DNA of 45,424 bases from UHGV virus genome UHGV-0356033; one strand, 5' to 3'. The notes beneath the pieces were generated by a model. It worked only from the letters and a program-made list of their open reading frames with translations, made no database searches and was not told the DNA's origin. This document shows positions 24,137 to 45,424 of this stretch, in pieces. This stretch comes from a virus. Position numbers and translations under genes: made by a program. Numbering within the stretch: position 1 is the stretch's first letter; the number at the start of each line of letters is the position of its first letter.

Positions 24137-24202
24137 AATTAGCCCTCCTGACGTAAATTTCTCACACTCATAGTGAGGTACGCCAAGAGAGCTTTATTGT
24201 TT

Positions 24203-24646: not shown

Positions 24647-24677
24647 TTGCAAACCTTAGAGACGCAAAAAAGTAAAA

Positions 24678-24806
24678 TTAAAACCAACGCGCGATGACGA
24701 AAGCCGCAGCGGCTAATATGGCTGTGGTGATTATCAATCCACCCCATGAAAGTTCCGCGTCGTATAGTGCGGATATCGCTACATTCGTAGCGTTTATCGT
24801 GGTCAT
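24678..24806 (-). CDS. small membrane peptide (42 aa)
   Basis: Hand-translated: MTTINATNVAISALYDAELSWGGLIITTAILAAAAFVIARWF; AGGAG SD 6 nt upstream of ATG 24806; too short for ORF track. Confidence 0.35.
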   Translation of the reverse strand: MTTINATNVAISALYDAELSWGGLIITTAILAAAAFVIARWF

Positions 24807-24863
24807 TTTCTGCTCCTGTCAATACCCTCATACCGGAGGGTATCTTCTGGATTATCTGGGTGG

Positions 24864-24962
24864 TTAATCTTCGAACGCCCAACGGTGACGTTTAATCAGC
24901 CAGTTTAAACCTTTACCAATTAACCACAACGAGCCAAGTGTTAACAGAACCCCTACAACCAT
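24864..24962 (-). CDS. small membrane peptide (32 aa)
   Basis: Hand-translated: MVVGVLLTLGSLWLIGKGLNWLIKRHRWAFED; AGGAGAGGG SD upstream of ATG 24962; too short for ORF track. Confidence 0.3.
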   Translation of the reverse strand: MVVGVLLTLGSLWLIGKGLNWLIKRHRWAFED

Positions 24963-24972
24963 ATTCCCTCTC

Positions 24973-25158
24973 CTAATTCCGCCATTCGCATTCGCGTTGA
25001 CGCCAAATTGAACCCCATGATAGTTTAATCAGATAAGATGAAACTACCCATAAAATCATCACCACACAAAACATGACATAAAGAACCGCTAGTATGGACA
25101 TGAAGCCAAACCCTGCCGCATCCACAATACGACGGAACCAATCAGTTTGCATAAACAA
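24973..25158 (-). CDS. small membrane protein (about 59-61 aa)
   Basis: Hydrophobic core FGFMSILAVLYVMFCVVMILWVVSSYLI; TTG 25158 with GAAGGAG SD 6 nt upstream (or ATG 25152); overlaps 3' end of ATPase gene. Confidence 0.4.
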   Translation of the reverse strand: MFMQTDWFRRIVDAAGFGFMSILAVLYVMFCVVMILWVVSSYLIKLSWGSIWRQRECEWRN

Positions 25159-30241: not shown

Positions 30242-30259
30242 TGTAACTACTCCTTTAGA

Positions 30260-31554: not shown

Positions 31555-31584
31555 CTTTAGTTCTCCTAAAATGGTTTTAGTTAA

Positions 31585-31626
31585 GTGAGAGCTTTTGTAC
31601 TCTCACCTAAGTAATATATATCTGAA
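31585..31626. promoter_or_regulatory. conserved regulatory element copy 1: stem-loop plus 19-bp motif TAAGTAATATATATCTGAA
   Basis: Stem GTGAGAG/CTCTCAC (31585-31591/31600-31606) immediately followed by motif at 31608-31626; identical 19-mer recurs at 35894-35912. Confidence 0.4.
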
Positions 31627-32274: not shown

Positions 32275-33048
32275 CTATTGATTAAGTTTTACATCGGCAA
32301 TAAACAGCAATTGTTTACCATGTTGCTGCACTTCTTTCCAACCCAGTTTCATAGCAGCGTCAACAACATCTAACATGCTGTAACGGGACATCAACGCGGT
32401 TGATTTTGTTCCTGACATTAAATAAAGTGGCTCATTAGGGCAACGGTCTCGAGCATCAGGAAGTTCTCGAATAACCGCTGAGCCTTCGGGTACGGTAACA
32501 ACATGAATCACGGTAAATGGTCTCTTGTGTGTTAAGTAGATACGGAACCCAACGTGTTCAGATTCATGAAAGATTTTCTTCACGACCACATCTTTCAGTG
32601 TCGTCTGAACATCATCCCCAGGTAATATCGTGGATTCACGAGAAACGAAACAACGACTATTTTCAATCGTGGAGAAATAATTACGTATCGGCAAACTGGC
32701 GTTATGATCGCGCAGTTTTTTGCTCAATAGATCGAAGTTCAGTTCTTTAACTTTTTCTAACCACTCTTTGGCTTGTTGAATGTAATAACTACCAACAGCG
32801 CGATAAGTTAATACCTTACCTGTGCTCACTTTCCAAAGCTTGATGCTTAGTGAATTTGGCTTATAGCGACGATACTCACCCTGCGTATGGTTGATGCGCT
32901 CGTAACGCTCTACATCATCAACTGGTGCAGATTCGACCGATTGTAATTGCAGCGTACGATCTAATCTATCGGCAAATAGTAGTGATGATAGCGGGCCTTC
33001 GATCATATACGGTTCGGTTTTAAAGATATCGTCTAAATGGACTTTCAT
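32275..33048 (-). CDS. paralogue-array member A (257 aa), C-terminal GW...QLLF motif
   Basis: ATG 33048 with AAGGAA SD; C-terminus KLGWKEVQQHGKQLLFIADV; N-terminus MKVHLDDIF. Confidence 0.6.
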   Translation of the reverse strand: MKVHLDDIFKTEPYMIEGPLSSLLFADRLDRTLQLQSVESAPVDDVERYERINHTQGEYRRYKPNSLSIKLWKVSTGKVLTYRAVGSYYIQQAKEWLEKVKELNFDLLSKKLRDHNASLPIRNYFSTIENSRCFVSRESTILPGDDVQTTLKDVVVKKIFHESEHVGFRIYLTHKRPFTVIHVVTVPEGSAVIRELPDARDRCPNEPLYLMSGTKSTALMSRYSMLDVVDAAMKLGWKEVQQHGKQLLFIADVKLNQ

Positions 33049-33061
33049 TTCTATTTCCTTC

Positions 33062-33089
33062 TTAACAAAAGCCGCGACTAAAGCGCGGC
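33062..33089 (-). terminator. intrinsic terminator downstream of gene 33116..34267
   Basis: Stem GCCGCG/CGCGGC (33071-33076/33084-33089); TTTTGTT on minus strand. Confidence 0.45.
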
Positions 33090-33115
33090 AGTTAGAGAAA
33101 GTGTATTTTCACTTA

Positions 33116-34267
33116 TTAGAGGTCAGCAACAAACAACAGCTGACTGCCGTATTTTTGCACGTCAGCCCAACCGTAGTCTTTCCCGATTATAGGTAGATGT
33201 AAAGCATCCAGTTTCTCGTCTTTTGCCTTTAGTTGCGCCATTAGCGCATTGGACGCCTCGGCACTGAGCAGTAATGCGGGTTCTTTTTCAGTACGTCCTT
33301 CTGCGGTCGGGAAGAAATCGTAATAGCTGCGAGTAGGTAAATCGACAGAAAAACTACGATTGCCTATTATGATGAAGAACGCAACTCCTTCACAGTTAGC
33401 ATCTACACTACACGACCACCCCGCCTCTGTTAAAAGGTCTTTTAACAGACACCACACTTTAAGTTGGTCCTTAGAAAGTGTACGGTAGATAGCAAGATGG
33501 TCAGGAAGTAAATGTACAGCCATAACCACGTTTTCAGATTTCTCGTCAAGCAACTCTGGATGTTGAATCGGGAACAATAATTCACTGATACCCACGTTAT
33601 CAATTTTGTTAACAAAATCAGTTAATTCATCTTTTAAGGTACGCACGGATTTTTCTCCTTCGACTTCAATAATCTGGTGGGGTTCGCCGCTAATTAAAAT
33701 GTGGTAAACGATGTCGTCGGTAGAACGGTAAGTGAGTTTGATAGCTTTATCACTTAACATTTCGTAGCGGAAGAAACTTTCGTACCAACTTGAGCCGAAA
33801 TCGTTTCGTGTAAGTTCCTGCTCAACTTTGATGGTTTTTGCTTCAAAGCCAATTAACCCGCTTAATAACGCGAGTTCTGGCTTAGTTAAAATAGCCGCAC
33901 CGTGAAAGGGCACTTTCTCAAGCTGAAAACATAAATTACTGACTTTACCACTTGGGAAGACCTTAAACATAATCTTCCGGTTGCTACTCTTTTCTCTAAC
34001 AACGAGTTTACGGTAATTTAGTCCACAATTTGAGTAAACCGCGAACTGGTAACCTTCAATTTCTTCATCGTAAGTACAGACATCGACAGGCGCGATAATC
34101 TCATCGTATTCACTAAGTACACAGCAGCCCAAGTTATAACCAAACAACTCGCGTTGTAATGAAGACTCGATGGTTAAGCTTGGTAGTGACCAAACCCGAT
34201 TATAGCATCTGTCCATCAATTCTTTTAGGATTTTGACATGTCCTGGTTTAGAAATAATATTTCGCAT
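33116..34267 (-). CDS. paralogue-array member B (383 aa), C-terminal GW...QLLF motif
   Basis: ATG 34267 with AAGGAGAG SD; C-terminus KDYGWADVQKYGSQLLFVADL. Confidence 0.6.
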   Translation of the reverse strand: MRNIISKPGHVKILKELMDRCYNRVWSLPSLTIESSLQRELFGYNLGCCVLSEYDEIIAPVDVCTYDEEIEGYQFAVYSNCGLNYRKLVVREKSSNRKIMFKVFPSGKVSNLCFQLEKVPFHGAAILTKPELALLSGLIGFEAKTIKVEQELTRNDFGSSWYESFFRYEMLSDKAIKLTYRSTDDIVYHILISGEPHQIIEVEGEKSVRTLKDELTDFVNKIDNVGISELLFPIQHPELLDEKSENVVMAVHLLPDHLAIYRTLSKDQLKVWCLLKDLLTEAGWSCSVDANCEGVAFFIIIGNRSFSVDLPTRSYYDFFPTAEGRTEKEPALLLSAEASNALMAQLKAKDEKLDALHLPIIGKDYGWADVQKYGSQLLFVADL

Positions 34268-34296
34268 TTTTACTCTCCTTTAGGGTTTTTCGTTAC

Positions 34297-34851
34297 TTAA
34301 GCAGGGTAAGCTAAGAACAACAACTGCTGGCCGAGTTTACGTACGGTATACCAACCGTGGGCTTTAGCGACCGCGATCAACGTTTCCCAGTCGTCAACAT
34401 CGCACTGCTCATTCCGAAGTCTTGTAAAGAGCGCCTCGGCTTCGCTTTGGTTTAATAACTTACCTGGATCGTCTGGGGTGCAATCAGTAGGGGTTGGAAA
34501 GAAAGCATACTGCCGCGCTAGGAGAAAATCGACCAGATACTTGGTGCTCTCTTTATAAACCAGCGTGGAAGTCTTCCCTTCGTGGAAGAAGCTACCTGTT
34601 TTCCAAACGCTATCTTTCAGTAAGCTCTGAAAGTAATCTGTAAAACCCGTTCTAAACGGGATATGGGTTTTACGTGTGATGTTGCGACGCAGCGGAGTTT
34701 CCTCTACAGCTTGTACACTTACCCCTACTATCATCGCACCTGGCTGAATAATGGTATTGGTCAGTACAGTATAAGGACGGACAAAGAAATGTTCGCCTAC
34801 GCCTTTTTCAAGGGTTTGGATAATTTCATTTTTCAGTTCAGTTTGAAACAT
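34297..34851 (-). CDS. paralogue-array member C (184 aa), C-terminal GW...QLLF motif
   Basis: ATG 34851 with AAGGAGAA SD; C-terminus KAHGWYTVRKLGQQLLFLAYPA. Confidence 0.6.
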   Translation of the reverse strand: MFQTELKNEIIQTLEKGVGEHFFVRPYTVLTNTIIQPGAMIVGVSVQAVEETPLRRNITRKTHIPFRTGFTDYFQSLLKDSVWKTGSFFHEGKTSTLVYKESTKYLVDFLLARQYAFFPTPTDCTPDDPGKLLNQSEAEALFTRLRNEQCDVDDWETLIAVAKAHGWYTVRKLGQQLLFLAYPA

Positions 34852-34880
34852 GGTATATTCTCCTTTTTCGGTTTTCTTAA

Positions 34881-35618
34881 TTACGCGGTTTTAATTAGCA
34901 GCAGATAGTCTTTCGTAATCTCAGCACAACTCCACCCTCTCATCGTGGCGATTTTACGAAGATCGATTTTCTCGTGATATCTCAATAAGGGATCGTCCGG
35001 GTTAATTTCAACCAGGTGGGTGGCTTTAGAAATCGTTTCTACATCAGGGATCTGTTTTGCTAAGTCTGATGCAATCAGTTCAATAACGCGGTATCCATTT
35101 AATACAGAAACATAAATGCGTAAACCATATAGCGTGCCCTCGTCTTCTAATGGACAAAGATCGATGCCAGGTCCAAGCAGTGATAACTCGACGTTATCGG
35201 GAAGGTTTTCTGCATTTCGGAGTAACCCTATCCCATTTCTAAACAGAGGGAAGTAAGAGAATAGTGGTGGTAAAGCCCAACCGTTCCCAATAAGCACATC
35301 AGCGATACTAGTAGGTGTGTTCGCAAGAAGACGAATGTGGTCAGCCACAACTTCAAGTTCGGCGTCACTGATCAACTTATAGATTAACATGACACTGGTT
35401 TCGGTATTAATAACAAAGAAGACGCGGTTGGCGTAACTACCTATCGTGTATTCGTCAATCATACGGTCGATAACGTCACTGTCTGGATAATCTTCAGGTT
35501 TAATTGTTCCGGCGTCGATTAACTTAGCAGGTTGCGATTGTTTTATTAGTTCGTTAACCACCGTAGAAGAAAGTTCTAAACTGGTGTTAGTAAAGATATC
35601 GTCTAATAATTCTCTCAT
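34881..35618 (-). CDS. paralogue-array member D (245 aa), divergent C-terminal motif
   Basis: ATG 35618; N-terminus MRELLDDIF matches member A; C-terminus RGWSCAEITKDYLLLIKTA is a degenerate version of the motif. Confidence 0.5.
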   Translation of the reverse strand: MRELLDDIFTNTSLELSSTVVNELIKQSQPAKLIDAGTIKPEDYPDSDVIDRMIDEYTIGSYANRVFFVINTETSVMLIYKLISDAELEVVADHIRLLANTPTSIADVLIGNGWALPPLFSYFPLFRNGIGLLRNAENLPDNVELSLLGPGIDLCPLEDEGTLYGLRIYVSVLNGYRVIELIASDLAKQIPDVETISKATHLVEINPDDPLLRYHEKIDLRKIATMRGWSCAEITKDYLLLIKTA

Positions 35619-35714
35619 GATTTACTCGCTAATCCCAATGAAGGGAAGGCTATTATTATGGATTGTAAAAGAGGTATAAGGAAGTCACTACGTTCCTCTG
35701 GGAAGAGTATGTCG

Positions 35715-35773
35715 GTATACTCCGTATACCTCCGCTATTTATATCCGTATACATAATGCCCCCTACCCCCTAC
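35715..35773. repeat. three TC(C/G)GTATAC palindrome-containing repeats plus tandem CCCCTAC x2
   Basis: GTATAC at 35715-35720, 35724-35729 and 35747-35752; CCCCTAC at 35760-35766 and 35767-35773; inside a 320-bp divergent intergenic region. Confidence 0.5.
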
Positions 35774-35860
35774 CGGTATCCCGAGTAGCAGAATAAAGGG
35801 GCAGACTGTAAAATTTTAGTAACCTTTAACGAAAGGTACTAAAAGGATAACGTGCCCGTA

Positions 35861-35912
35861 GGGACTGAACTGGTACTTCAGTCCCTATTCACTTAAGTAA
35901 TATATATCTGAA
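35861..35912. promoter_or_regulatory. conserved regulatory element copy 2: stem-loop plus 19-bp motif, 28 bp upstream of gene 35940
   Basis: Stem GGGACTGAA/TTCAGTCCC (35861-35869/35877-35885) followed by TTCACT then TAAGTAATATATATCTGAA at 35894-35912. Confidence 0.45.
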
Positions 35913-35939
35913 TTCAATTCCGATCTAAGGAACGTCCCG

Positions 35940-36905
35940 ATGGAGAAATCCAGTGTTGATTTTTTCTCAATTGGTATCGTCGCGGAAGACAAACCCCGTG
36001 GTACAGATCGGGTAAAAGTGATACCAATTGAAACCAACTTTGCTAACCCTACCGTGGTGCAATCTGTTTCTTCAGCAACTGAAAAGACACACGAAACATC
36101 TGGTGCAACAGATAACCTAACCATTAAGACGGGAAACACGATAACGGCAAAGTGGTGGAAGTTTAACTCCAACCGAATTAATTCCCCTGACGTTAAACGA
36201 GAAGACTACGTTATCTTGTTACGTTTGGGGAAAACCGATATTTATTTTTGGATTGATCTGAACTTCGCTAACGTTAAGCGATTAGAAGATGCGGTTTATG
36301 CGTGGTCGGCTGACCCTGAAAACCAAATGGCGGATGACCTGTCGAACGCGTATGTGTTGAATGTCTCGACAATTGACAAACATATCACGCTAAGAACAAG
36401 TATGGTAAACGGCGAGAAAGCGGCGTGGTTGTTTCAGTTTGATAATGCAAACGGTACGTGGCAGTGTGTTGACCATAAAGGAAACAAGTATTACATTAAC
36501 TCGGTGGAAGACGATTTAGGTTTTGAGAATGCGATGCTTTCAAAAGTGAACATCAACAAAGAAGATGCGTTCATTTATTCAAAGCGTTCTATTAACCTGG
36601 AAACGAAAACGATTAATGAAAAATGTGAAGTCCGCAATACAGAAGCAGCGAAATCCGTTACGTTTAAAACACAAACCTGGTTAACGGAAGCGGGAAGTTC
36701 GACAACGTTTAAAACGCCGAACTTTAAACAAGAAGGGAAGGAAGCGATGTTCACCGGTAATTTGGAAGTCGCTAAGAACTTCAAATACGGTGGTACGGGT
36801 GAAGGTGTGGGTGTCTTTACGGTTAAAGATGCCATTATTTCCGGTATTACCTTTAGCGTTCACATTCACCAAGGTAAACATGGCCCGACATCACCTCCGC
36901 AGTAA
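35940..36905 (+). CDS. hypothetical protein (321 aa), possibly virion or tail associated
   Basis: ATG 35940 with AAGGAA SD; sits at head of rightward tail-fibre region; beta-rich T/N/K composition; function not recognised. Confidence 0.55.
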   Translation: MEKSSVDFFSIGIVAEDKPRGTDRVKVIPIETNFANPTVVQSVSSATEKTHETSGATDNLTIKTGNTITAKWWKFNSNRINSPDVKREDYVILLRLGKTDIYFWIDLNFANVKRLEDAVYAWSADPENQMADDLSNAYVLNVSTIDKHITLRTSMVNGEKAAWLFQFDNANGTWQCVDHKGNKYYINSVEDDLGFENAMLSKVNINKEDAFIYSKRSINLETKTINEKCEVRNTEAAKSVTFKTQTWLTEAGSSTTFKTPNFKQEGKEAMFTGNLEVAKNFKYGGTGEGVGVFTVKDAIISGITFSVHIHQGKHGPTSPPQ

Positions 36906-37022
36906 TTCCCCTTTTTCTTACGTTGTTTTTATATATTGTGACCTGACGTTGGTAAAACTTTTTATCAACACTTTTCTTAAACCCATCGTTTAGTTAAGCA
37001 GGCCACTTTTTCGCGCACTCTA

Positions 37023-37042
37023 CTCCTCCCTACGGGGAGGAG
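37023..37042 (+). other. G/C-rich stem-loop upstream of DUF1471 gene
   Basis: CTCCTCCC/GGGAGGAG stem with TACG tetraloop; weak U-tract, so insulator or weak terminator. Confidence 0.3.
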
Positions 37043-37111
37043 CTATCTTATGCTTCGGTTGTAACACACGTCGGTCTTAGACCAACATTCCTTTTGAAAT
37101 GGAGAGCTGTT

Positions 37112-37321
37112 ATGTCTATTAAAGAGTTCTCTTCTGCTGAGCATATTCCAGAAGAGTTTAAGAAAATCGGTAACGTTAGCGCTTTCGGCGACACCGTTGA
37201 TCATGTAACTGGTAAGCTGGCTGCTGAAGCCGAAAAAATTGGCGGCGACGCATTCAAGGTTATCGGTATTTCCGGCAACAACAAACTGCACGGTAACGCG
37301 ATTGTCTACAAAAAAGACTAA
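37112..37321 (+). CDS. DUF1471-domain protein (BhsA/McbA/YdgH-like), 69 aa, no signal peptide
   Basis: KIGNVSAFGDTVDHVTGKLAAEAEKIGGDAFKVIGISGNNKLHGNAIVYK matches, from memory, the C-terminal domain of E. coli BhsA (...LEEQLAQKADEMGAKSFRITSVTGPNTLHGTAVIYK); GGAGAG SD 5 nt before ATG 37112. Confidence 0.55.
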   Translation: MSIKEFSSAEHIPEEFKKIGNVSAFGDTVDHVTGKLAAEAEKIGGDAFKVIGISGNNKLHGNAIVYKKD

Positions 37322-37323
37322 GC

Positions 37324-37383
37324 GAAAAAAAAAAACGTGCTACTCCTACCCTCTTAGAGGGTAGGAGGTTACTTTATTTTTTT
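37324..37383. terminator. bidirectional intrinsic terminator
   Basis: A10 run, then palindrome CCTACCCTCT/AGAGGGTAGG (37345-37365), then TTACTTTATTTTTTT; serves DUF1471 gene and convergent gene 37374..38636. Confidence 0.65.
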
Positions 37384-38636
37384 CGTGCTCTAAAGCGATG
37401 CATTTCTAAATACACTTTTTCCCAGGGACCGAATGGACCGACGATTGCTTGCGCGTCGTTAATCTTCTTCTGATTATACCACCGGGCTTCACGAAAGACG
37501 TAGTTTTGACTGTCGAACTCCGTGGTGTTAAATACCCACTCACCCTCCTCCCATGTAGGCCAATAGCCCACCGTCTTTCCGAAGCGATTATTTAAGTACC
37601 CTAATGGTTTTTCAGAATCAGGATCGCTAGGGTCCTTGAGATAACAACGTCCCCAAACTGCGTTATGTGATACACCCACAACCTCTTCTTCTAAATACGG
37701 ATTATCTACCGTAAAGATAAACGAAGACTCGTGGAGTAAAAGTGCCTTTAATGTTTCGGGGTTGCGAATACGTTGGACATTAGTAGGTGTTGATAAATCC
37801 CCCACACCGATGGCGTCCCAGTCGTAATAGCGACGGGTTTCCAGAACGGTCCGTGCAAGATCAAAATTCGGTAAAGAAATCATGATCGCACGGTCGGAGA
37901 AATAACCGCCAGGAGGCAACCAACGTAACAGTCCACCGATGACGAAACCCACCGTTTTTCCCGTGATAGATTCGGGCAGCGAAATCATTAACGTGGAGTA
38001 ATAGTCACGTGTAGTATCGAGCTTGTTTAGGGTAAGGTTGGCAATGGGGTAAGTTTTAACATTCCCTAACTGACCAAAAACCATACAGCCGATATCTGGC
38101 GTACAGGCTCTTCGTACGATTTTACCGGCCCCGGGTAATCGGACACCTACGGTATCTGTCTGGTGCGGTACCCATTGACCGTTAATGTTGTACAGTACAC
38201 TATTACGGTATTTGTCCTTCCACTTGTCCTCACAAACGATGACAACGTCATCAGCATCGTCTAAGCTGAAATCTTGACTGTGGTGGTACCCAGGCGGACA
38301 CAGATATGTTTCAACGGGTACGTCAGCATTAATCGATTGGTAATGTGCCCAACTGAATTCGAGTTTCGGCAATCCGGCTTTTAGAGTAGGGATGACGTTT
38401 CCGGCTTTTTCATTTAACCAATCTTGTAAAGTGTCTGTTCGGTTTTGTAGTTCGGCAAGATGGTATTGGCTGACTAGCGTATAGTCTTTACCAAGTGCAC
38501 TTAAACCGATCTCAAAGGTGTGGTAGTCTGAACACAACGTATTTAAGGGTTGCGTGACATCGATGGCTCCCCAGGTACGGGACTCTCGAGAGAAGCCAAA
38601 AGCGCTGTCGGGCCGCACTTGATAAGCAGTAGTCAC
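37374..38636 (-). CDS. hypothetical protein (420 aa), GTG start
   Basis: Long minus-strand ORF between plus-strand tail genes; no ATG near 5' end; GTG 38636 with AGAGGA SD. Confidence 0.5.
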   Translation of the reverse strand: MTTAYQVRPDSAFGFSRESRTWGAIDVTQPLNTLCSDYHTFEIGLSALGKDYTLVSQYHLAELQNRTDTLQDWLNEKAGNVIPTLKAGLPKLEFSWAHYQSINADVPVETYLCPPGYHHSQDFSLDDADDVVIVCEDKWKDKYRNSVLYNINGQWVPHQTDTVGVRLPGAGKIVRRACTPDIGCMVFGQLGNVKTYPIANLTLNKLDTTRDYYSTLMISLPESITGKTVGFVIGGLLRWLPPGGYFSDRAIMISLPNFDLARTVLETRRYYDWDAIGVGDLSTPTNVQRIRNPETLKALLLHESSFIFTVDNPYLEEEVVGVSHNAVWGRCYLKDPSDPDSEKPLGYLNNRFGKTVGYWPTWEEGEWVFNTTEFDSQNYVFREARWYNQKKINDAQAIVGPFGPWEKVYLEMHRFRARKK

Positions 38637-38704
38637 AGCTCTTTTCCTCTATAGATTCAAGTCATAGTATGAACTTCGACGCCCACGGACTATAGGAGTA
38701 GAGA

Positions 38705-41700
38705 ATGGCTGTCGTCCTAGACCCACACTTCAAAAAACCGGGGAATAAAATAACCGGTGAAGCGGTCGCCGTCATTGGTACGAAATACCGAATGTTGGTA
38801 CCTGCCCACGCCCCTTTTTTCACCACATCCCTGGTGGTCAAGAGCGGCGGCAAAACACTGACTTTAGGCGACGATTACGTTATTACGCACCCGTACGAGA
38901 CCGGTATGTTGCGCACAGCCTATCTCATTCACGGGATGATTTGGATTGTTAATGACAAATACAAATCGAATTTTACGGTAGATTACCACGCCGTTGGTTG
39001 TGGTCAGGCTACCCAACAACAGATTACCGCAGAACGCGAACTCAATAAAGATAAATACCCGTCTGCGTGTCAGTGGGACACCGTCATCGGAGACGTTTAC
39101 TTTCCACCGGTCGATATCCAGTTCGATTGGGAGAATTGGAAAGGTGAACTGGAATTAATGCAGGCTATTGCTGGATTAGGCGATTCGTTAGGGGAAGTCG
39201 TGAGTCGGCTTAACCCCATCGCACGCAATACCCTGGATTTAGAATACCGTGCTAATAGCAAGGTTATCACTTCCGAGCAGTATGCCGTATACGACAATAA
39301 AGGTGGCTTCACCTACAACACTGCCCGTCATCGTTATAGCTTGAGTTATAAAACTGCAACCTTTAACGACTACGCCCTGTCAGTGAAACACAGAATTCCT
39401 GCTATTCTGCCAGACATGACGAAATTGAATCCAAACGAACAGATCGATTGGATGCTCTGTTATGCTAACGGCGGTGCAAGTATTCTACGGCTGCAGCTAA
39501 AACAGCGCAAAATCTCACTGGTCTTAACGGTCGCTATTGGTAGCGGTTCAACAAACTACGATTATACGTTAATCAACGGTTTAACTGACGATGAGTTAAA
39601 AAACGATATCGATTTTAGTGTAACCCGTCAACCCGGAAACGGTGTTTACGTCATCGTAGTAAAAACAAATAAACAGACCATGGATTACACATTCAATGTC
39701 GATACGCCGCCTGATGAGTTCTCGGCAGGGTATTCGAAAACGGATGTTGCTAAATGGTTGAAGTTTAAAACGAACATTAATTTAAACTGGTATGCGGCCG
39801 AAAACGATTATATTCAAATTCGTTCTTTACCCGGCGCACCAGAACCTGACATCGATAACGATGTTTACCAGTTAATAGTCAAATACCATCAGTTAGTTGA
39901 GCAGCTGTATCGTAACGCGCCTGCACACGAACACGTTACACGTAAGGACAACCCGCACACCGATACGTGGGGTCCGATCCGTGCGTTAGAGCTGAATGGT
40001 ATTGCGACAGATGCCGCGTTAGCTTACGGGAAGACGAAACAGCAGTTAACGGATTATGTTAATGCTAAGTACCCAACACAAGCAACGTTAACCGCACAGA
40101 AAAAACTGCTTCGTGAATCGCCGAGCAAGAACGTTAACGGCACGATTACCACACTTCCGGGTTTTACTTCGTTCACGACGGAAGTTGATCCGGTCTCGAT
40201 GTCGAAATACGTGAGTCCTTATTTTAGCGAAAGCTATGTTAGTAGTGGTCGCAGATATCACGGCGCGCTTCGTTATACAGGAGCGAAAAGCGGTTTCAGT
40301 GCTAACTTTAATGCAGTGCCTGCCAACCTGCAAGATATTGACTTTATTGTTACTGGACGTAAAACAGCGTCTGGTAATGAAGCGGTCGGTAGGGTTGGTT
40401 TACGTTTCTACGAAAATCCTGGTAGTAACTCCGGTAAGTACGTAGAGATTACCGGTGAAGTCTGGTCCGGTACTCTTACTATCGAACTGGCGTTGCACGG
40501 TTACGGTAGTCCGGTACCGGCAGTTCGGTATATTTCACAAGCTCCTAACCCGGCAATACCGGATGGGGATTTTACGCTACGTTTTCAACTGAAGCGTACA
40601 GGGAATGTGTTTGACGTCGTTATTACCGTAAACAGTAAAACGTATAGCGGTAGGATTAACTTCAATAACATGGACGTTGCGTTAGAAGCATTAGAGAATC
40701 AGCACCACTTTAAATCGCTGATCAATAATGTTGCCGACGCCGTTACCATTAGTTCGCAAAACAAAGGTAACACGGTTACCATTAAGAAAGCACCGGATGT
40801 TGTTGACGAGACACGTTTAGGTGCCCAGTTTGTTGTTGATCCGAAATCCATCAAGTTTATTGGCCAAGGTTCAACTGATGTTAACGTGGGTAACAACCCC
40901 GTAACGTTCCAAGCAGGTACTAACCAGCTTGTGCTATACCCCGATGACCGAGGATTGTTGTGGCGTGGTAAAAAACTCTTAGACCCCACCACCGTAGCCC
41001 CGTATCTGCCAGGCAATACCGCAGGTGGCACAGGTTTATTCTACGCAAGTTCGACAACAACGGTTACGATCACCGGTAGCGGGATAAAAGCCTCGCCGTT
41101 CGTAGCGACCTTTATTCTTCCTACCGCGACCGATACAACAGCTCTGGCAGCTTGGCAGTTGACCGATGAGTTCGGTACCGCTGAAAACCTTGCAGCAACG
41201 CCAGCACTGATTGAAAAACTCGATGCGGAGTTCACCGGTAAGTTAGTTGCAGTTAAATCGTACATTAACGACATGCAACTTACCAGCTCGGTTACTATCG
41301 ATAAGATTACCTTTGGTTTAGGTAACGTTGCGAATACGCCTGATGTCGATTTACCGATTTCTACAGCACAACGTGCGGAGTTAGATAAATACTCGCCTAA
41401 AGTTCACCAACACCCGTTTACCGCTTTTGGTACAGGGAACGCAACCACAGCGAAACGCGGTCTGATTAAATTTGGTCTGGATGTGGATGATGCGACTTTA
41501 GCACTCGATGGGAGTGTGGTAATGGCGCAGACTTCCCAGATTGAAAAATTGGAGCGCGCTGTCAGCGGTGTTGACTCGGAGGCACGTCTTGATATTATAC
41601 GTTTTGGTGAGTCTGGTAACGACTTAATAGACGTTACGGTCAAAGACAAAATTCTGGTCACGCTTCCAGCTTCAACGTATTTTATCGGTGGTGAAACATA

Positions 41701-43027
41701 CGACGTTCCGTTGATGACGATTAACGTCAGTGAACGTTTTCCGAAATTGAATACAGAAATCTACGCAGGGATTTTTGTTGATATTGTTGACAACAAAGCG
41801 AAGTATATTGTCCACGACAGCTACAGTCAGGCTGAAACGGATACCATGACGCGTGTAGGGTTGATTGGTGTTAACGACATTTCTGAGGTGTTCGTTACGG
41901 AGATGCGTAATGTCACACGGTTGGGCGATTTCCGTGAACTGAAAGATCATAAAGCCGATGACAACGCACACATTCAGCGCTCCGCGTCACGTGCAGCGCT
42001 TGGGTTAGCTAACTTAACGGTAGGCGCGCCTTGCTGGGCTTCTGGACTCCAGGCAGTAGTACGCGGTGAAGCAGATTGGCGTTATGTTGTCGATGGGCAG
42101 TATAAAGCCTTAGACGGGGTGAAATACGACCAGCTCGCATCCAAGTGGATTTTTGACGCGAAAGGGGTAAGCGATAACCTACACGGGTTTATCCACAACA
42201 TGTTCCCAGCTTTTAAGAACGCAGGAATGCGAGTCAGTTGGGAAACAGAAAGCAACGCAAAAACCGGCACGGTGTTAGAAACTGTTTTAGGTTGTTGGAA
42301 AAACACCGACGGCGAGTTTATGCGGTTGTCGTTACTTATCACTCGTGGTTATCGTTTAACTGACAGCAACGGTGAATATTGTTACGCAGGGTTCGGTTTG
42401 AACTTCGGTAGCGGGAAATCGGTAGTGGTAGGTTTCACACCAACGAAGCGTGTTACGGCTGCACCGTGGAATACGTTACAACCTGACGTAACGTTTACCC
42501 ACACCCGTGCTGCAAATAACGCAATAACGTTTAACGCAACATTGGCCTTAGCGGGCACTACGTATACCATCGTGGTGTTTTTATCTGCGACTGATAAATA
42601 CGTAAGTTGCACGGCAGCAGGGGGAGCTACGCAGAAAATCCCTCTAACTGACCGTTTAACTGGGTTCAATATCGCACCTATCGTTAACGATCCGTATACC
42701 CCTATTTACTACGGTTTAGGGGGACTTTATGAGGATGAAGTTCGTGCCAACATCCGTTCTACGGCAGATAGCGCAACCGCGAATAAAGTCTATGGTACGT
42801 TGTTAGACTATATTAGCAACTATTCCTCATTAAATCGTGTGCGCGTTATGGAATTGACCGGTGTCAGTTCAGACCCCGAAACGCTTAATGCGTTAGTGGC
42901 AACTGAATTTAATAACAACCTGGCGGATTACGCTGCGTTACCGATACCTCCTTATCTTAACAAGGAGCGCGTAATGTCGTTTATCGACACCAACAATAAA
43001 GTGCAGGCGGTAATCATTCGCGATTAA
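38705..43027 (+). CDS. tail fibre protein (1440 aa)
   Basis: Very long ORF, ATG 38705 with AGGAG SD; beta-rich G/T/N/V composition typical of fibres; segment TAKRGLIKFGLDVDDATLALDGS resembles fibre repeat; next gene is also fibre-like. Confidence 0.6.
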   Translation: MAVVLDPHFKKPGNKITGEAVAVIGTKYRMLVPAHAPFFTTSLVVKSGGKTLTLGDDYVITHPYETGMLRTAYLIHGMIWIVNDKYKSNFTVDYHAVGCGQATQQQITAERELNKDKYPSACQWDTVIGDVYFPPVDIQFDWENWKGELELMQAIAGLGDSLGEVVSRLNPIARNTLDLEYRANSKVITSEQYAVYDNKGGFTYNTARHRYSLSYKTATFNDYALSVKHRIPAILPDMTKLNPNEQIDWMLCYANGGASILRLQLKQRKISLVLTVAIGSGSTNYDYTLINGLTDDELKNDIDFSVTRQPGNGVYVIVVKTNKQTMDYTFNVDTPPDEFSAGYSKTDVAKWLKFKTNINLNWYAAENDYIQIRSLPGAPEPDIDNDVYQLIVKYHQLVEQLYRNAPAHEHVTRKDNPHTDTWGPIRALELNGIATDAALAYGKTKQQLTDYVNAKYPTQATLTAQKKLLRESPSKNVNGTITTLPGFTSFTTEVDPVSMSKYVSPYFSESYVSSGRRYHGALRYTGAKSGFSANFNAVPANLQDIDFIVTGRKTASGNEAVGRVGLRFYENPGSNSGKYVEITGEVWSGTLTIELALHGYGSPVPAVRYISQAPNPAIPDGDFTLRFQLKRTGNVFDVVITVNSKTYSGRINFNNMDVALEALENQHHFKSLINNVADAVTISSQNKGNTVTIKKAPDVVDETRLGAQFVVDPKSIKFIGQGSTDVNVGNNPVTFQAGTNQLVLYPDDRGLLWRGKKLLDPTTVAPYLPGNTAGGTGLFYASSTTTVTITGSGIKASPFVATFILPTATDTTALAAWQLTDEFGTAENLAATPALIEKLDAEFTGKLVAVKSYINDMQLTSSVTIDKITFGLGNVANTPDVDLPISTAQRAELDKYSPKVHQHPFTAFGTGNATTAKRGLIKFGLDVDDATLALDGSVVMAQTSQIEKLERAVSGVDSEARLDIIRFGESGNDLIDVTVKDKILVTLPASTYFIGGETYDVPLMTINVSERFPKLNTEIYAGIFVDIVDNKAKYIVHDSYSQAETDTMTRVGLIGVNDISEVFVTEMRNVTRLGDFRELKDHKADDNAHIQRSASRAALGLANLTVGAPCWASGLQAVVRGEADWRYVVDGQYKALDGVKYDQLASKWIFDAKGVSDNLHGFIHNMFPAFKNAGMRVSWETESNAKTGTVLETVLGCWKNTDGEFMRLSLLITRGYRLTDSNGEYCYAGFGLNFGSGKSVVVGFTPTKRVTAAPWNTLQPDVTFTHTRAANNAITFNATLALAGTTYTIVVFLSATDKYVSCTAAGGATQKIPLTDRLTGFNIAPIVNDPYTPIYYGLGGLYEDEVRANIRSTADSATANKVYGTLLDYISNYSSLNRVRVMELTGVSSDPETLNALVATEFNNNLADYAALPIPPYLNKERVMSFIDTNNKVQAVIIRD

Positions 43028-43040
43028 GGAGATTTTTTTG

Positions 43041-45424
43041 ATGAAAGCGTATCCTTACGATCCTCGGGGGACGAAAGCCGAGAATCACTTCTTAGAGGAG
43101 CGTATCATCGGGTCAGAGAACAACAACGATCGGGTGGTGATTTTAGACCACCGCCCGTTCTTTGAAGATTTGGTCGTCAGACAACCAGGTTCAACCACCC
43201 CACTGAGTCGTGGGGTGGACTACGAACTGCAATATCAGCTGACGGAACTGGATGACTCGGTAGCAGCCAACGTGTATTGTGGGGTACACCTTATCAACCC
43301 ATCCATCAAAGGTATCGTAACCTTTGAAGGACAAATGCTCGGCGGTACGTTCTACGACCCGTTTGTTGATATTCTCGATGAACTGGTGAAATATTTGAAT
43401 AACCCAGTCAGTGCTGACTGGCTGTTATTAGACGGTAGACCATCGTTATATCCAGCGACGCCAGCAGCAACGTCCTGGGCGGATTTGCTGAACAAAAAAT
43501 ATTTAGCGTCGGCAGTTCACGATATTGAATTGAAAACCGACGACGCTAACCAGCTAATTAAAGACAAATTAGCTGAAGTTAAAGCGTTAGTGACTGCGTT
43601 GGGTAAAGAAATCGAAGCATTTAACTACCCGGCACATATCGCAGCGAAGAACCCGCACGAAACCACATCCGCGCAGATTAACGCGCATCCTGTTAACTTG
43701 AAAACACCCGACACCTTTATGGCGTACGGGTTAAAGTTGAAAGCACTGACGGATGAGCTGAAAGCGTTTCGTTTACCGCAGTCGGTTATCGATACGTATA
43801 TCTCTCACTGGATTTCTTCGGAAGTGCGGGGCGTGTTTAACTGTACGGTGTCAGGAAACCGCGCACAGTTCCGTTCGAAAAACGGTGAGTCCGAAATCAT
43901 TTTTGCCAACGATGGTTTTACGTTAAAATCCAACGGTTCTGTGGTATTAGCGGTAGGGCATCTGGAAGGTACGGGTGCAGGACGTTATATCAACTGGCGT
44001 GCCGGTAAAAACACATTACGCATCGAGTCAACAGGCGATGCTTTAGGGATGAACAAACTCACCCTGAACGGCAATCCGTTACTGACCACCACAGCGTTGA
44101 TGGAATACCAACAAGATCCAGATGCGGGCTCCGGTAGCGGTGGCGACCCTGATGACTCGAAGGTGTACATTGAAGGTCGTAATGGGATTAGCTTTACCGG
44201 TAAAGGTTCTCGCGCCGACCCTATCGTGGGGACTATCGACCCAACAAAAGCGACAACCGCCGAAAAAGGCGTCGCTAAACTTAAAACAGGTAAAGGTACA
44301 GAAACGACTGGGGTTGCTGCAACACCGGCTTCGTTAGCACCATACTCGACTGACCTATCGGGGTATGTGGCTAAAACGACCATGATTAACGGTAAGCCGA
44401 TGAATGACGGCTCCAGGACAATCACGAAAGCTGATCTGGGGTTAGGGCAAGCGGATAACACCGCAGACGTTGACAAGCCGTTGTCTACCGAGTTAAATAC
44501 GGCGCTTAGTGGTTTAGCGGATGCAGGTCACCACCACGATTGGTCGGAACTAGGCATTTATAAAGCCTCGCAAACCGTTTACGGTATCGGTCGTTACGCA
44601 ACTAACCAGAACGGTTTGGTTGAAAACCGTGCAGTGGTGCCGAACGTCTTAAAAGAACTTTCGGCGCGTTTAGATGTGGTTGCTGCGGCGATTGCAAACG
44701 CGAAAGAAGGGTCGGTAACGGATTTCGCTGCGGTAAAAGGCGCAGACTGGCGCTTTAATAGTCAGGGTACGGCAATCTCCGTCCAAGATTTGAAGTATTT
44801 CTATTTGCTGAACGGCGCGAAAGCTGATAGCGCCGTTACAGGTTCGATTGACCTGCAAACTACGCCGATGTTTAACTGGTTCTCACCGAACAACCAAATT
44901 GAGACGACCTGGCCTACGGGGAAAGTGAGCGCTGGTAAGGGCATTAACTGGACAGGTATTGAAGAACCACCACTAATGGGTTTCCAATCTGTTCCGGTAG
45001 GTAAAACCGCCTCACAGATGGGCGACCAGTCAGTTGTTACTGTGTTGGCAAAAACGCGGGTAAGGGCACGCCAGCCGAAGCTTTGGGTTTATGCCGCAGG
45101 AGGTGGTCCGGTTACAGTTTACATTAACGGTATCCAGGCAGCCACAGGCCAGTCTCCGCTCGTTGCAGTGTACGAAACATCAGCGGACGTTGAAAACTAC
45201 ACCGTAGCGGTTAAAGCTGAGTGTAGCGACACGGCTAAATCCGCAGCGGTGCAATTCGAAATTTACGACGGTGACTACCCCGTTTATTTCAGTGGCCCTG
45301 AAACGCACGTAGAGCTTCTCCAAGAGTTTGTTACAACACACGTAGGCATTCGTCATTATCTGTACGTTAACATGCTCACAGGCTCTCTGTATTCGCGTAC
45401 TGAGCCAATTCAGAGTATTGCAGT
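43041..45424 (+). CDS. tail fibre protein, 5' portion (794+ aa, continues beyond right edge)
   Basis: ATG 43041 with AAGGAG SD; SQTVYGIGRYATNQNGLVENRAVVPNVLKEL and TAEKGVAKLKTGKGTETTGVAATPASLAPY resemble the conserved repeat of T-even fibre proteins gp12/gp34 (from memory). Confidence 0.6.
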   Translation, partial: MKAYPYDPRGTKAENHFLEERIIGSENNNDRVVILDHRPFFEDLVVRQPGSTTPLSRGVDYELQYQLTELDDSVAANVYCGVHLINPSIKGIVTFEGQMLGGTFYDPFVDILDELVKYLNNPVSADWLLLDGRPSLYPATPAATSWADLLNKKYLASAVHDIELKTDDANQLIKDKLAEVKALVTALGKEIEAFNYPAHIAAKNPHETTSAQINAHPVNLKTPDTFMAYGLKLKALTDELKAFRLPQSVIDTYISHWISSEVRGVFNCTVSGNRAQFRSKNGESEIIFANDGFTLKSNGSVVLAVGHLEGTGAGRYINWRAGKNTLRIESTGDALGMNKLTLNGNPLLTTTALMEYQQDPDAGSGSGGDPDDSKVYIEGRNGISFTGKGSRADPIVGTIDPTKATTAEKGVAKLKTGKGTETTGVAATPASLAPYSTDLSGYVAKTTMINGKPMNDGSRTITKADLGLGQADNTADVDKPLSTELNTALSGLADAGHHHDWSELGIYKASQTVYGIGRYATNQNGLVENRAVVPNVLKELSARLDVVAAAIANAKEGSVTDFAAVKGADWRFNSQGTAISVQDLKYFYLLNGAKADSAVTGSIDLQTTPMFNWFSPNNQIETTWPTGKVSAGKGINWTGIEEPPLMGFQSVPVGKTASQMGDQSVVTVLAKTRVRARQPKLWVYAAGGGPVTVYINGIQAATGQSPLVAVYETSADVENYTVAVKAECSDTAKSAAVQFEIYDGDYPVYFSGPETHVELLQEFVTTHVGIRHYLYVNMLTGSLYSRTEPIQSIA

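What the first reader, a model, noticed from the sequence alone, without database searches (positions are those of the whole stretch)
37023..37383. Host-like DUF1471 (BhsA/McbA-type) gene without signal peptide, boxed in by terminators among tail genes
The 69-aa protein ends ...GDAFKVIGISGNNKLHGNAIVYKKD, closely matching the hallmark C-terminus of enterobacterial stress and biofilm proteins such as BhsA. Those are exported, whereas this copy starts MSIKEFSSAEH with no signal peptide. The gene has E. coli-like codon choice and lies between a G/C stem-loop and a strong bidirectional terminator inside the tail-gene region, the classic layout of an acquired moron. A cytoplasmic version of a periplasmic stress domain is unusual.
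Basis: partly seen in the sequence, partly recalled or inferred. Interest (0 to 1): 0.6.

Follow-up and report, generated by a model that had tools for sequence, protein, structure and literature searches.

The report
Signal-less DUF1471 protein of jumbo phage
A giant phage of enterobacteria carries, as a fixed and strongly conserved gene between its baseplate genes, a copy of a small bacterial periplasmic stress-protein domain (DUF1471/BhsA type) that has lost its export signal, so it is made inside the infected cell; the domain and its odd location are real, but it is an old core gene of this phage group rather than a fresh host pick-up, and its job is still unknown.

Summary
The ORF is real: 37112-37321 (+), 69 aa. 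It passes Pfam's threshold for PF07338 (DUF1471) and models confidently as the DUF1471/RcsF fold. There is no signal peptide and no upstream in-frame start. Residue 1 aligns with the first residue of mature YahO. A bidirectional terminator follows the gene and a weaker hairpin precedes it.

The "recent E. coli moron" reading fails. The gene holds the same slot (baseplate gene, DUF1471, convergent gp171-like tail gene) in four cultured jumbo-phage genera. Its GC and GC3 match the phage. Its flanking hairpins carry the phage's own terminator heptamer. dN/dS is about 0.1.

Leaderless DUF1471 copies are essentially confined to this phage clade. 73 of 87 bacterial-type cluster representatives carry a hydrophobic leader, and the rest look like mis-called or truncated genes.

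Published proteomics on the SPN3US ortholog gp172 show it in crude or step-gradient particles but not in highly purified virions or tails. The authors flag it as "unusually high abundance in cell".

Best reading: a domesticated, abundantly made, soluble cytoplasmic accessory protein of the tail-gene region. Its molecular role is inferred only. Known in databases (phrog_8068), never studied. Moderate interest.

The parts
35940..36905 (+). Upstream neighbour: baseplate assembly protein (SPN3US gp173 homologue), 321 aa
   Evidence: phrog_3216 'baseplate assembly protein', E=3.7e-114. Same neighbour in SPN3US, SPAsTU, Asesino, CR5, Kwan and EarlPhillipIV. SPN3US gp173 is a tail protein by MS.
36932..36942 (+). 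Conserved upstream box TATATTGTGAC, function unknown
   Evidence: Aligned (T)AT(A/T)NTGTGAC in SPAsTU, L004, SPN3US and Kwan. Single copy in the window.
37023..37042 (+). Upstream G/C hairpin CTCCTCCC-TACG-GGGAGGAG. Probable terminator of the baseplate-gene transcript.
   Evidence: Second-best terminator-like site in 33-45.4 kb. Fold z = -2.5, weak T tail. Carries the phage's intergenic CTACTCC heptamer. Hairpins followed by T-runs lie at the same place in Asesino and Kwan. Stem invariant and loop variable among population variants.
37049..37052 (+). TATG, candidate phiKZ-type late promoter/start site for a monocistronic transcript (inference only)
   Evidence: TATG is present 60-75 nt upstream of the start codon in all 8 relatives compared. 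phiKZ late promoters are T(-3)ATG(+1) (PMC7598289). TATG is not enriched upstream of genes in this window, 6 of 24 against 7.7 expected.
37101..37106 (+). Shine-Dalgarno GGAGAG
   Evidence: Sequence. TGGAGA is conserved before the start codon in relatives.
37112..37321 (+). Leaderless DUF1471 gene, 69 aa plus stop (ortholog of SPN3US gp172, phrog_8068)
   Evidence: PF07338 at 38.2 bits against GA 27. phrog_8068 full length, E=4.5e-32. AF2 pLDDT 89.3 with the DUF1471/RcsF fold. dN/dS 0.07-0.10 among relatives.
37322..37385 (.). Bidirectional intrinsic terminator: A11 run, 11-bp stem CTCCTACCCTC/GAGGGTAGGAG (37343-37367), T-rich run. Shared with the convergent gp171-like gene.
   Evidence: Best terminator-like site. 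dG -31.3 and -27.8 kcal/mol, z -6.3 and -5.8 on the two strands. The A-run/hairpin/T-run architecture is conserved with different stem sequences in SPAsTU, Asesino, SPN3US and CR5.
37374..38636 (-). Convergent neighbour: gp171-like protein, 420 aa (essential tail-associated protein in SPN3US)
   Evidence: phrog_3337, E=6e-144. 76-81% identical to the SPN3US and Asesino homologues. gp171 is essential and tail-associated (PMC5105663).
38705..43027 (+). gp170-like large virion protein (baseplate/tail-fibre paralogue family C of SPN3US)
   Evidence: phrog_7557. Synteny with SPN3US gp170. Family C assigned to baseplate/fibres in PMC5694885.

Best explanation
This is a domesticated host domain. An ancestor of the SPN3US-like jumbo phages of Enterobacterales captured a DUF1471 (BhsA/YahO-type) gene and lost exactly the Sec signal peptide. 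The mature domain has been kept since as a core gene in its own short transcription unit, bounded by phage-type terminators, between the baseplate-assembly gene and the convergent gp171-like tail gene. The protein folds like its periplasmic relatives but stays in the cytoplasm of the infected cell. There it is made in large amounts and is not a stable part of the purified virion. The most likely mode of action is inference, not shown: a small, soluble, stoichiometrically abundant binding module that works in the cytoplasm late in infection, as an accessory or chaperone-like factor for baseplate and tail-fibre morphogenesis. It would be needed in quantity and left behind when particles are purified, functionally comparable to small phage tail-assembly chaperones. 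Shown: domain, fold, lack of leader, synteny, purifying selection, native composition and native terminators. Shown for the SPN3US ortholog in the literature: abundance in the cell and absence from highly purified particles. Inferred: timing, cytoplasmic site of action, chaperone-type role.
For: Domain and fold: PF07338 passes the gathering score. The AF2 model has pLDDT 89.3, with the small first strand and short helix, then beta-alpha-beta-beta. Best PDB fold matches are YdgH, SrfN, STM0082, YahO and RcsF. Exact loss of the leader: query residues 9-68 align to 30-90 of full-length YahO (2noc) and to 9-69 of the mature construct (2ma4); the offset of 21 equals the cleaved signal peptide (PMC4092069). 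There is no hydrophobic N-terminus and no upstream start. Old, fixed gene: same slot in four cultured genera. 52 phage records carry it, all enterobacterial SPN3US-like jumbo phages, while the neighbouring gp171 family reaches 140 records, including phiKZ-like phages that lack the gene. Goslar has no such gene next to its gp171 homologue. Constraint: dN/dS is 0.07-0.10 for pairs with unsaturated dS. An identical protein is encoded on contigs whose ORF differs at up to about 17 synonymous sites. Native context: GC and GC3 equal the phage's. All 6 CTACTCC heptamers in the window are intergenic, including both hairpins flanking the gene. High expression: codon choice leans to optimal codons (top 3.9% of phage windows) and the Shine-Dalgarno is good. 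The SPN3US authors note 'Unusually high abundance in cell' for gp172 (PMC7411985 Table S2). Not a stable virion part (SPN3US gp172): 13 PSM in a crude differential-centrifugation sample, 6 and 3 in CsCl-step preps, 0 in step-plus-buoyant-density tailed particles, and 0 in tail-containing preps where gp171 gave up to 39 PSM and gp173 up to 27. Absent from three equilibrium-purified mutant particle preps. Absent from the 2023 deep virion MS, which lists gp171, gp173 and even 2-3-PSM non-virion proteins.
Against: No experiment addresses function, and the whole DUF1471 family lacks a known molecular activity (PMC4092069). All proteomic evidence comes from SPN3US gp172, which is only 45% identical to the window protein and is unusually diverged. 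A 7-kDa protein can be lost from gels, as the authors themselves caution, so absence from purified virions is not proof. gp172 was labelled 'Tail' by the authors and reached 81% coverage in wild-type step-gradient virions. The chaperone idea rests only on gene position, abundance and non-incorporation. Expression timing is unproven: TATG is not enriched upstream of genes in this window, and the paper with in-cell time courses could not be read. Strict monophyly of the phage sequences in a 55-column NJ tree has only 13/40 bootstrap support.
Confidence: 0.5

Rival explanations
1. Recent host-derived moron. The gene was picked up lately from E. coli or a relative and is carried as a self-contained cassette that changes host biofilm, stress tolerance or adsorption for the benefit of the infected or lysogenic cell.
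For: Own terminator, and a hairpin upstream. A host-family domain that is otherwise restricted to Enterobacteriaceae. Codon log-ratio slightly shifted toward E. coli usage. Absent next to the gp171 homologue of the more distant phage Goslar.
Against: Present in the same slot in four cultured genera and 52 phage records. GC and GC3 are indistinguishable from the phage. The flanking hairpins are of the phage's own CTACTCC class. The best bacterial relatives are only about 31-43% identical, and the BhsA equivalog score is 46.8 against a cut-off of 90. Without a signal peptide it cannot reach the compartment where BhsA-type proteins act. These phages are virulent jumbo phages, so there is no lysogen to benefit.
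Confidence: 0.04
2. Minor tail or baseplate passenger that is delivered into the next host's periplasm. It is assembled in the cytoplasm, hence no signal peptide, rides loosely on the tail tip or baseplate, and is released in the periplasm when the tail punctures the outer membrane. There the DUF1471 domain does what its host relatives do at the envelope, for example sealing or lowering permeability, or excluding superinfection.
For: SPN3US gp172 was detected in CsCl-step wild-type virions with 4 unique peptides and 81% coverage. Its mass-normalised count of 0.86 is similar to gp171 (0.74) and the portal (0.93). The authors classed it as 'Tail'. The gene lies inside the baseplate and tail-fibre gene block. 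The core residues shared with periplasmic homologues are retained.
Against: 0 PSM in buoyant-density-purified tailed particles and in tail-rich preparations that gave up to 39 PSM for gp171. Absent from three equilibrium-purified mutant virion preps and from deep MS of the virion. Highest count in the crudest sample, and 2 PSM in tailless heads. This is the pattern of a carried-over soluble protein.
Confidence: 0.15
3. Holin-gated or post-lysis envelope effector. Like a canonical endolysin, it accumulates leaderless in the cytoplasm and meets its ancestral target (periplasm, outer membrane or anionic surface polysaccharide) only when the inner membrane is permeabilised, or after release. It would then aid outer-membrane disruption, or coat debris or neighbouring cells.
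For: This reading reconciles the lost leader with strong conservation of a periplasmic-type domain. It fits high abundance in the cell and absence from pure virions. DUF1471 proteins are linked to envelope permeability and surface properties, and SrfN binds sulfated polysaccharides (PMC4092069; abstracts listed).
Against: The gene is not located with recognisable lysis genes but among baseplate genes. No DUF1471 protein is known to disrupt membranes. There is no direct evidence of any kind; it is pure inference.
Confidence: 0.15
4. Functionless remnant or chance ORF between two terminators.
For: Small size, and no known function for the family.
Against: Significant Pfam and PHROG matches and a confident fold. 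dN/dS about 0.1 with saturated synonymous sites. Conserved Shine-Dalgarno. Peptides observed for the ortholog. The exact protein occurs in 876 collection blocks.
Confidence: 0.01

Closest known systems
SPN3US gp172 (SPN3US_0172 / ACQ60_gp094, 'DUF1471 domain-containing protein'; PHROG family phrog_8068)
   Same: Ortholog by position, between the baseplate assembly gene and the convergent gp171. Same length, same leaderless N-terminus (MSI(K/R)E...) and same bidirectional terminator architecture.
   Different: Only 45% identical, while the neighbouring gp171 is 76% identical. The window protein is closer to the SPAsTU, ChrisDB and Asesino type (72-80%).
YahO (Salmonella STM0366; PDB 2ma4/2noc) and BhsA/YcfR (E. 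coli b1112), single-domain periplasmic DUF1471 proteins
   Same: Same Pfam domain and fold. Conserved core motifs, (K)IG.vS...G(G/A)..F.(I/V)...G.N..HG.A(I/V).YK. The phage protein corresponds residue for residue to the mature protein after signal-peptide cleavage.
   Different: No Sec signal peptide. About 25-37% identity. Below every NCBIfam equivalog cut-off (BhsA 46.8 against 90, YbiJ 33.8 against 110, YahO 24.9 against 90). Encoded by a virulent phage and made in the cytoplasm.
RcsF periplasmic domain (PDB 2y1b, 2l8y)
   Same: Same alpha+beta fold, TM-score 0.84-0.87 normalised to the query. This was already noted for DUF1471 domains by Eletsky et al. 2014.
   Different: 10-12% identity. 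No lipobox, and none of the cysteines needed for RcsF function (the phage protein has no Cys). No evidence of a link to Rcs signalling.
Classic phage morons (e.g. lambda bor/lom type cassettes; recalled from general knowledge)
   Same: A small host-like gene with its own terminator, set between structural genes.
   Different: Not variable among related phages, no atypical composition, and native-type terminators. The carrier is a virulent jumbo phage. The product cannot reach the envelope by the Sec route.
Small phage tail/fibre assembly chaperones (e.g. T4 gp57A; functional analogy only, from general knowledge)
   Same: Small, abundantly made, encoded among tail genes, and not retained in the finished particle. 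This last point is inferred from the SPN3US data.
   Different: No sequence or fold relationship was tested or expected, and no genetic evidence links gp172-type proteins to assembly.

Membership tests
DUF1471 / YdgH_BhsA-like domain (Pfam PF07338) | Sequence match to the family HMM above the curated gathering score | tested here: met
   38.2 bits against GA 27, E=1.4e-9, residues 17-67 covering profile positions 2-55 of 55.
DUF1471 / YdgH_BhsA-like domain (Pfam PF07338) | Mixed alpha+beta fold with a small first strand and short helix followed by beta-alpha-beta-beta, most similar to RcsF (Eletsky 2014) | tested here: met
   AF2 pLDDT 89.3, with E4-6, E16-26, H29-42, E47-54 and E59-68. Foldseek top hits are 4evu, 2y1b, 2m2j, 2ma8, 2jna and 2noc. 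Fold description from PMC4092069.
DUF1471 / YdgH_BhsA-like domain (Pfam PF07338) | N-terminal Sec signal sequence and periplasmic location (true of 'most' members) | tested here: not met
   No hydrophobic N-terminal segment and no upstream in-frame start. Residue 1 aligns with the first mature residue of YahO. This is a typical rather than a strictly defining feature, so domain membership stands.
DUF1471 / YdgH_BhsA-like domain (Pfam PF07338) | Restricted to Enterobacteriaceae/Enterobacterales | tested here: met
   All phages carrying it infect Salmonella, Erwinia, Escherichia, Cronobacter or Proteus. It is encoded by a virus rather than a cell, which the 2014 family description did not include.
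BhsA equivalog (NCBIfam NF047859, multiple stress resistance protein BhsA) | Score at or above the curated equivalog cut-off (90 bits) | tested here: not met
   46.8 bits. GenBank labels such as 'putative multiple stress resistance protein BhsA' on the phage homologues over-state the relationship.
phrog_8068 (jumbo-phage DUF1471 family; SPN3US gp172 orthologs) | Full-length HMM match plus conserved genomic position | tested here: met
   E=4.5e-32, residues 1-69 on profile positions 1-70 of 70. Synteny in four cultured genera.
Moron (recently acquired, independently transcribed accessory cassette) | Patchy presence among closely related phages, and atypical base composition | tested here: not met
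   Present in every SPN3US-like genus examined. GC 43.8% and GC3 47.1% against 44.1% and 44.5% for phage genes.
Moron (recently acquired, independently transcribed accessory cassette) | Own promoter and terminator | tested here: inconclusive
   The terminator is clear. The promoter is only a conserved TATG with no statistical support in the window.
Virion structural protein of SPN3US-like phages | Reproducible presence in highly purified virions | tested here: inconclusive
   Literature only, for the ortholog gp172. Present in step-gradient wild type. Absent in equilibrium-purified particles, in tails and in the 2023 deep MS. Leans to 'not met', but small-protein loss from gels cannot be excluded.

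The most novel reading that the evidence does not exclude
The leaderless DUF1471 protein still works on the cell envelope, but reaches it by a phage-made route instead of Sec. The route would be either the holin lesion at the end of infection or passage as a loosely bound tail passenger during injection. This would make it a new kind of phage envelope effector derived from a host stress protein, and a handle on the still unknown molecular activity of the whole DUF1471 family.
Probability: 0.15. Interest if true: 0.7.

Novelty: new variant of a known kind. Interest (0 to 1): 0.4.

Why it matters
DUF1471 proteins (BhsA, McbA, YahO, SrfN, YdgH, RclB and others) are numerous, stress-induced envelope proteins of enterobacteria. 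Their molecular activity is still unknown.

A clade of virulent jumbo phages has kept a leaderless copy for a long time, under strong constraint and apparently at very high expression. This is a natural experiment. It shows that the bare domain has a useful activity outside the periplasm, or one that is delivered there by a phage route.

SPN3US has amber-mutant genetics and established proteomics, so the question is directly testable. The result also corrects database labels that call these phage proteins 'multiple stress resistance protein BhsA'.

For phage biology it adds one more abundant, unexplained, clade-specific protein of SPN3US-like jumbo phages. It is not a paradigm shift.

Tried and rejected
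- Hidden signal peptide: rejected. The only upstream in-frame start (TTG 37094) adds 6 residues, and a stop lies at 36995-36997.
- Recent transfer from E. coli: rejected on composition, synteny and low identity.
- Imported terminators: rejected. Both hairpins carry the heptamer CTACTCC, whose 6 copies in the window are all intergenic.
- Known RNA families or tRNAs in the window: none.
- Known defence-system protein: no PADLOC hit.
- Phylogenetic proof of a single capture: tried with a 55-column NJ tree. The phage sequences group together, but a few long-branch bacterial representatives fall inside and bootstrap support for strict monophyly is 13/40. It is inconclusive, and synteny is the better argument.
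- Insertion point by comparison with Goslar: the gp171 homologue there is followed directly by a terminator and a convergent gene, with no DUF1471 gene. That convergent gene is not recognisably homologous to the window's baseplate gene, so this is only suggestive.
- Promoter class: no sigma-70-like promoter was called in the intergenic region upstream of the gene. A phiKZ-type TATG is conserved in relatives but is not enriched in the window. An AT-rich box shared partly with a putative early-promoter repeat is not conserved in relatives. Timing is left open.
- Literature linking DUF1471 or BhsA with jumbo phages: none found.
- Weintraub et al. 2019, which has the in-cell proteome time course of SPN3US, is not held in the library.
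- A solved phage structure containing this fold: none in the PDB search.
Full report
**1. What is there**

The finding's span (37023-37383) holds one ORF on the + strand, from ATG 37112 to TAA 37319-37321. It encodes 69 aa: MSIKEFSSAEHIPEEFKKIGNVSAFGDTVDHVTGKLAAEAEKIGGDAFKVIGISGNNKLHGNAIVYKKD. A GGAGAG Shine-Dalgarno lies 5 nt upstream. The only in-frame start further upstream is a TTG at 37094, which adds six residues (MKWRAV), and an in-frame stop lies at 36995-36997. No hidden leader exists.

**2. Domain and fold**

- Pfam PF07338 (YdgH/BhsA/McbA-like, DUF1471) matches at 38.2 bits against a gathering score of 27, E=1.4e-9.
- NCBIfam's equivalog models for BhsA, YbiJ, YahO, McbA and YhcN all match, but far below their cut-offs. 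BhsA is best at 46.8 against 90 bits. This is a DUF1471 domain, not an ortholog of any named host protein.
- AlphaFold2 on an 8-sequence alignment gives pLDDT 89.3. The model has a small first strand and a short helix, then beta-alpha-beta-beta.
- Foldseek's best PDB matches are the DUF1471 domains of YdgH, SrfN, STM0082 and YahO, plus RcsF. This is the same set of relatives described for the family by Eletsky et al. 2014 (PMC4092069).

**3. The missing leader is real and precise**

In the PDB sequence search, query residues 9-68 align with residues 30-90 of full-length YahO (2noc) and with 9-69 of the mature construct (2ma4). The offset is 21 residues. That is the length of the signal peptide shown to be cleaved in YahO and SrfN. 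The phage ORF therefore starts where the mature host protein starts.

I searched a profile of the phage family against 1.84 billion cluster representatives and got 91 hits at E<1e-3.

- The top four (68-78 aa) match from residue 1 and have no hydrophobic N-terminus. In a tree they fall with SPN3US, CR5 and Kwan-type phage proteins.
- Of the other 87, 73 have a hydrophobic segment in their first 30 residues. The 14 exceptions look like truncated or mis-started gene calls.

Conversely, E. coli BhsA searched against 50,697 phage records hits only this jumbo-phage clade, apart from one bacterial contig and one 6.5-kb fragment. Leaderless DUF1471 and phage-borne DUF1471 are thus essentially the same small set.

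**4. Hairpins**

The two best terminator-like sites in 33000-45424 flank the gene.

- The downstream site has an 11-bp G/C-rich stem (37343-37367) between an A11 run and a T-rich run. It folds strongly on both strands, at -31.3 and -27.8 kcal/mol with z = -6.3 and -5.8. It serves the convergent gp171-like gene as well. The A-run/stem/T-run design is kept, with different stem sequences, in SPAsTU, Asesino, SPN3US and CR5.
- The upstream hairpin (37023-37042) is weaker (z = -2.5, poor T tail). Equivalent hairpins with T-runs occur in Asesino and Kwan.
- Both hairpins carry the heptamer CTACTCC. All six copies in the 45-kb window are intergenic, although intergenic DNA is only 6.8% of the sequence, and they sit in terminator hairpins elsewhere in the phage. 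The terminators are therefore of the phage's own make.

**5. Which phage, and how old is the gene**

The window is a jumbo phage of the SPN3US/phiEaH2/Asesino group. The best cultured relatives are only about 75% identical in DNA. The exact 69-aa protein occurs in 876 blocks of the assembly collection, on 222-228 kb metagenomic contigs.

By tblastn, 52 phage records carry a homologue at 40-80% identity. All are jumbo phages of Salmonella, Erwinia, Escherichia, Cronobacter or Proteus. In SPN3US and SPAsTU (Seoulvirus), Asesino (Erskinevirus), Kwan (Wellingtonvirus), and CR5 and EarlPhillipIV (Derbicusvirus), the gene lies in the same slot: baseplate assembly gene, then DUF1471, then the convergent gp171-like gene.

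The gp171 family itself reaches 140 records, including Goslar, phiKZ-like and RAY-like phages that lack the DUF1471 gene. The capture therefore predates the split of these enterobacterial genera and postdates their split from other phiKZ-related phages.

A domain tree is compatible with one capture but cannot prove it, with bootstrap support of 13/40.

**6. Selection and composition**

For pairs whose synonymous sites are not saturated, dN/dS is 0.07-0.10 (SPAsTU-L004, SPAsTU-Asesino, CR5-EarlPhillipIV). Between the window and its nearest cultured relatives pS is about 0.76 while pN is 0.13-0.19. Metagenomic variants encode the identical protein with up to about 17 synonymous differences. These loci were retrieved by protein identity, which is a caveat.

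GC (43.8%) and GC3 (47.1%) equal the phage background of 44.1 +/- 2.1% and 44.5 +/- 3.1%. The log-ratio of E. coli to phage codon preferences is +0.019 per codon, against -0.12 +/- 0.05 for phage genes. It is exceeded by 3.9% of phage 68-codon windows. The shift comes from GCT, GGT/GGC, CTG, AAC, TTC and GAC, which are the translationally optimal codons.

**7. What is known about the ortholog**

The SPN3US homologue is gp172 (SPN3US_0172).

- Ali et al. 2017 found it in CsCl-step-purified virions: 7 kDa, the smallest virion protein, 4 unique peptides, 6 spectra, 81% coverage. They missed it in mutant particles and left its status open (PMC5694885). Their Table S3 shows it absent from all three equilibrium-purified mutant preparations.
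- Table S2 of PMC7411985 is the most telling. It gives 13 PSM in a crude differential-centrifugation sample, 6 and 3 in step-gradient samples, 2 in heads, and 0 in buoyant-density-purified tailed particles. It also gives 0 in three tail-containing preparations in which gp171 gave 23-39 PSM and gp173 3-27 PSM. [quoted passage not shown] - The 2023 deep virion MS lists gp171, gp173 and even 2-3-PSM 'non-virion' proteins, but not gp172 (PMC10052503).
- gp171 is essential and tail-associated (PMC5105663).

The simplest reading is that gp172 is a very abundant soluble protein of the infected cell that follows particles through mild purification only. Two caveats apply. Small proteins are easily lost from gels. 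Also, gp172 is only 45% identical to the window protein, far more diverged than its neighbours.

**8. How it most likely works**

Shown:
- A leaderless, correctly folding DUF1471 domain.
- Conserved for a long time under strong constraint.
- Independently terminated, in the baseplate and tail-fibre gene block.

Shown for the ortholog: abundant in cells and not stably in pure virions.

Inferred: it acts in the cytoplasm late in infection as a small binding module. I favour an accessory or chaperone-like role in baseplate and fibre morphogenesis. The reasons are its fixed place among those genes, its abundance, and its absence from the finished particle. That specific role has no direct support, and I put it at roughly 0.3. 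The broader statement (domesticated, abundant, soluble, non-structural) I put at roughly 0.65.

Rivals:
- A loosely bound tail passenger delivered to the periplasm on injection (0.15).
- A holin-gated or post-lysis envelope effector (0.15).
- A recent moron serving host fitness (0.04).
- A remnant (0.01).

Expression class is unresolved. A TATG like the phiKZ late start site (PMC7598289) lies just after the upstream hairpin and is conserved 60-75 nt upstream of the start in eight relatives. TATG is not enriched upstream of genes in this window.

**9. Comparison with what is known, and novelty**

The family is catalogued: phrog_8068, RefSeq 'DUF1471 domain-containing protein', and some GenBank records 'putative multiple stress resistance protein BhsA'. 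No paper in the searchable library links DUF1471 or BhsA with jumbo phages. The SPN3US papers call gp172 a protein of unknown function.

The 2014 family description states that DUF1471 occurs exclusively in Enterobacteriaceae and mostly with signal sequences. The phage clade is therefore a distinct, undescribed variant of a known domain family. The window's gene is an ordinary member of that variant.

Interest is moderate. The oddity is real and testable in an existing genetic system, but it is one small protein of unknown function, and the 'moron' framing does not hold.

Noticed in passing
whole window; loci L011-L015: The window belongs to an uncultivated SPN3US-like jumbo phage of about 225 kb. 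The exact 69-aa protein is indexed in 876 blocks of the public assembly collection, on metagenomic contigs of 222-228 kb. The closest cultured phages are only about 75% identical in DNA over this region.
   Followed up: partly
window 31610-31626 and 35896-35912 (+), with hairpins just 5' at about 31584-31606 and about 35860-35886: There are two exact copies of AGTAATATATATCTGAA, with 0.15 expected by chance. On the minus strand the repeat reads TTCAGATATATATTACT. This is an AT-rich box of the kind reported for early (virion RNA polymerase) promoters of phiKZ-like phages, and it lies about 60 nt upstream of the minus-strand gene ending at 31554.
   Followed up: partly
window 155, 19500, 20116, 30247, 37020, 37340: The heptamer CTACTCC occurs six times, always in intergenic DNA (6.8% of the sequence). 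Five copies were confirmed as lying in G/C-rich terminator hairpins; the copy at 30247 was not inspected. It appears to be a signature of this phage's intrinsic terminators.
   Followed up: partly
L008 (Erwinia phage Kwan) 3001-3222 and 3287-3847: Wellingtonvirus phages carry two leaderless DUF1471 genes in tandem. One is the 73-aa ortholog. The other is a 186-aa paralogue with an N-terminal DUF1471 domain fused to an acidic, low-complexity tail of about 120 aa.
   Followed up: partly
L001 (SPN3US) 6001-6210 compared with window 37112-37321: The SPN3US-type copy (gp172) is far more diverged (45% identity) than its neighbour gp171 (76%). SPAsTU, also a Seoulvirus, carries an Asesino-like copy. 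This suggests accelerated evolution or allele exchange at this locus.
   Followed up: partly
window 36932-36942 and 37002-37012: Two short boxes upstream of the gene are conserved across genera: (T)AT(A/T)NTGTGAC and GCCACTTTTT(T)C. Their function is unknown.
   Followed up: no
window 38637-38704: The 68-nt divergent intergenic region between the gp171-like and gp170-like genes holds a near-palindromic TCATAGTATGA. It places a TATG 27 and 34 nt upstream of the two start codons, so these are possible back-to-back late promoters.
   Followed up: no
window 23935-24202 and 24653-25141: Two stretches of 268 and 489 nt contain no ORF of 90 aa or more. They may hold small genes (possibly membrane proteins) or non-coding elements. 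No Rfam family matched them.
   Followed up: no
GenBank annotations of homologues: Several phage records label this gene 'multiple stress resistance protein BhsA'. The NCBIfam BhsA equivalog score is about half the cut-off and the protein lacks the leader, so the name over-states what is known.
   Followed up: yes
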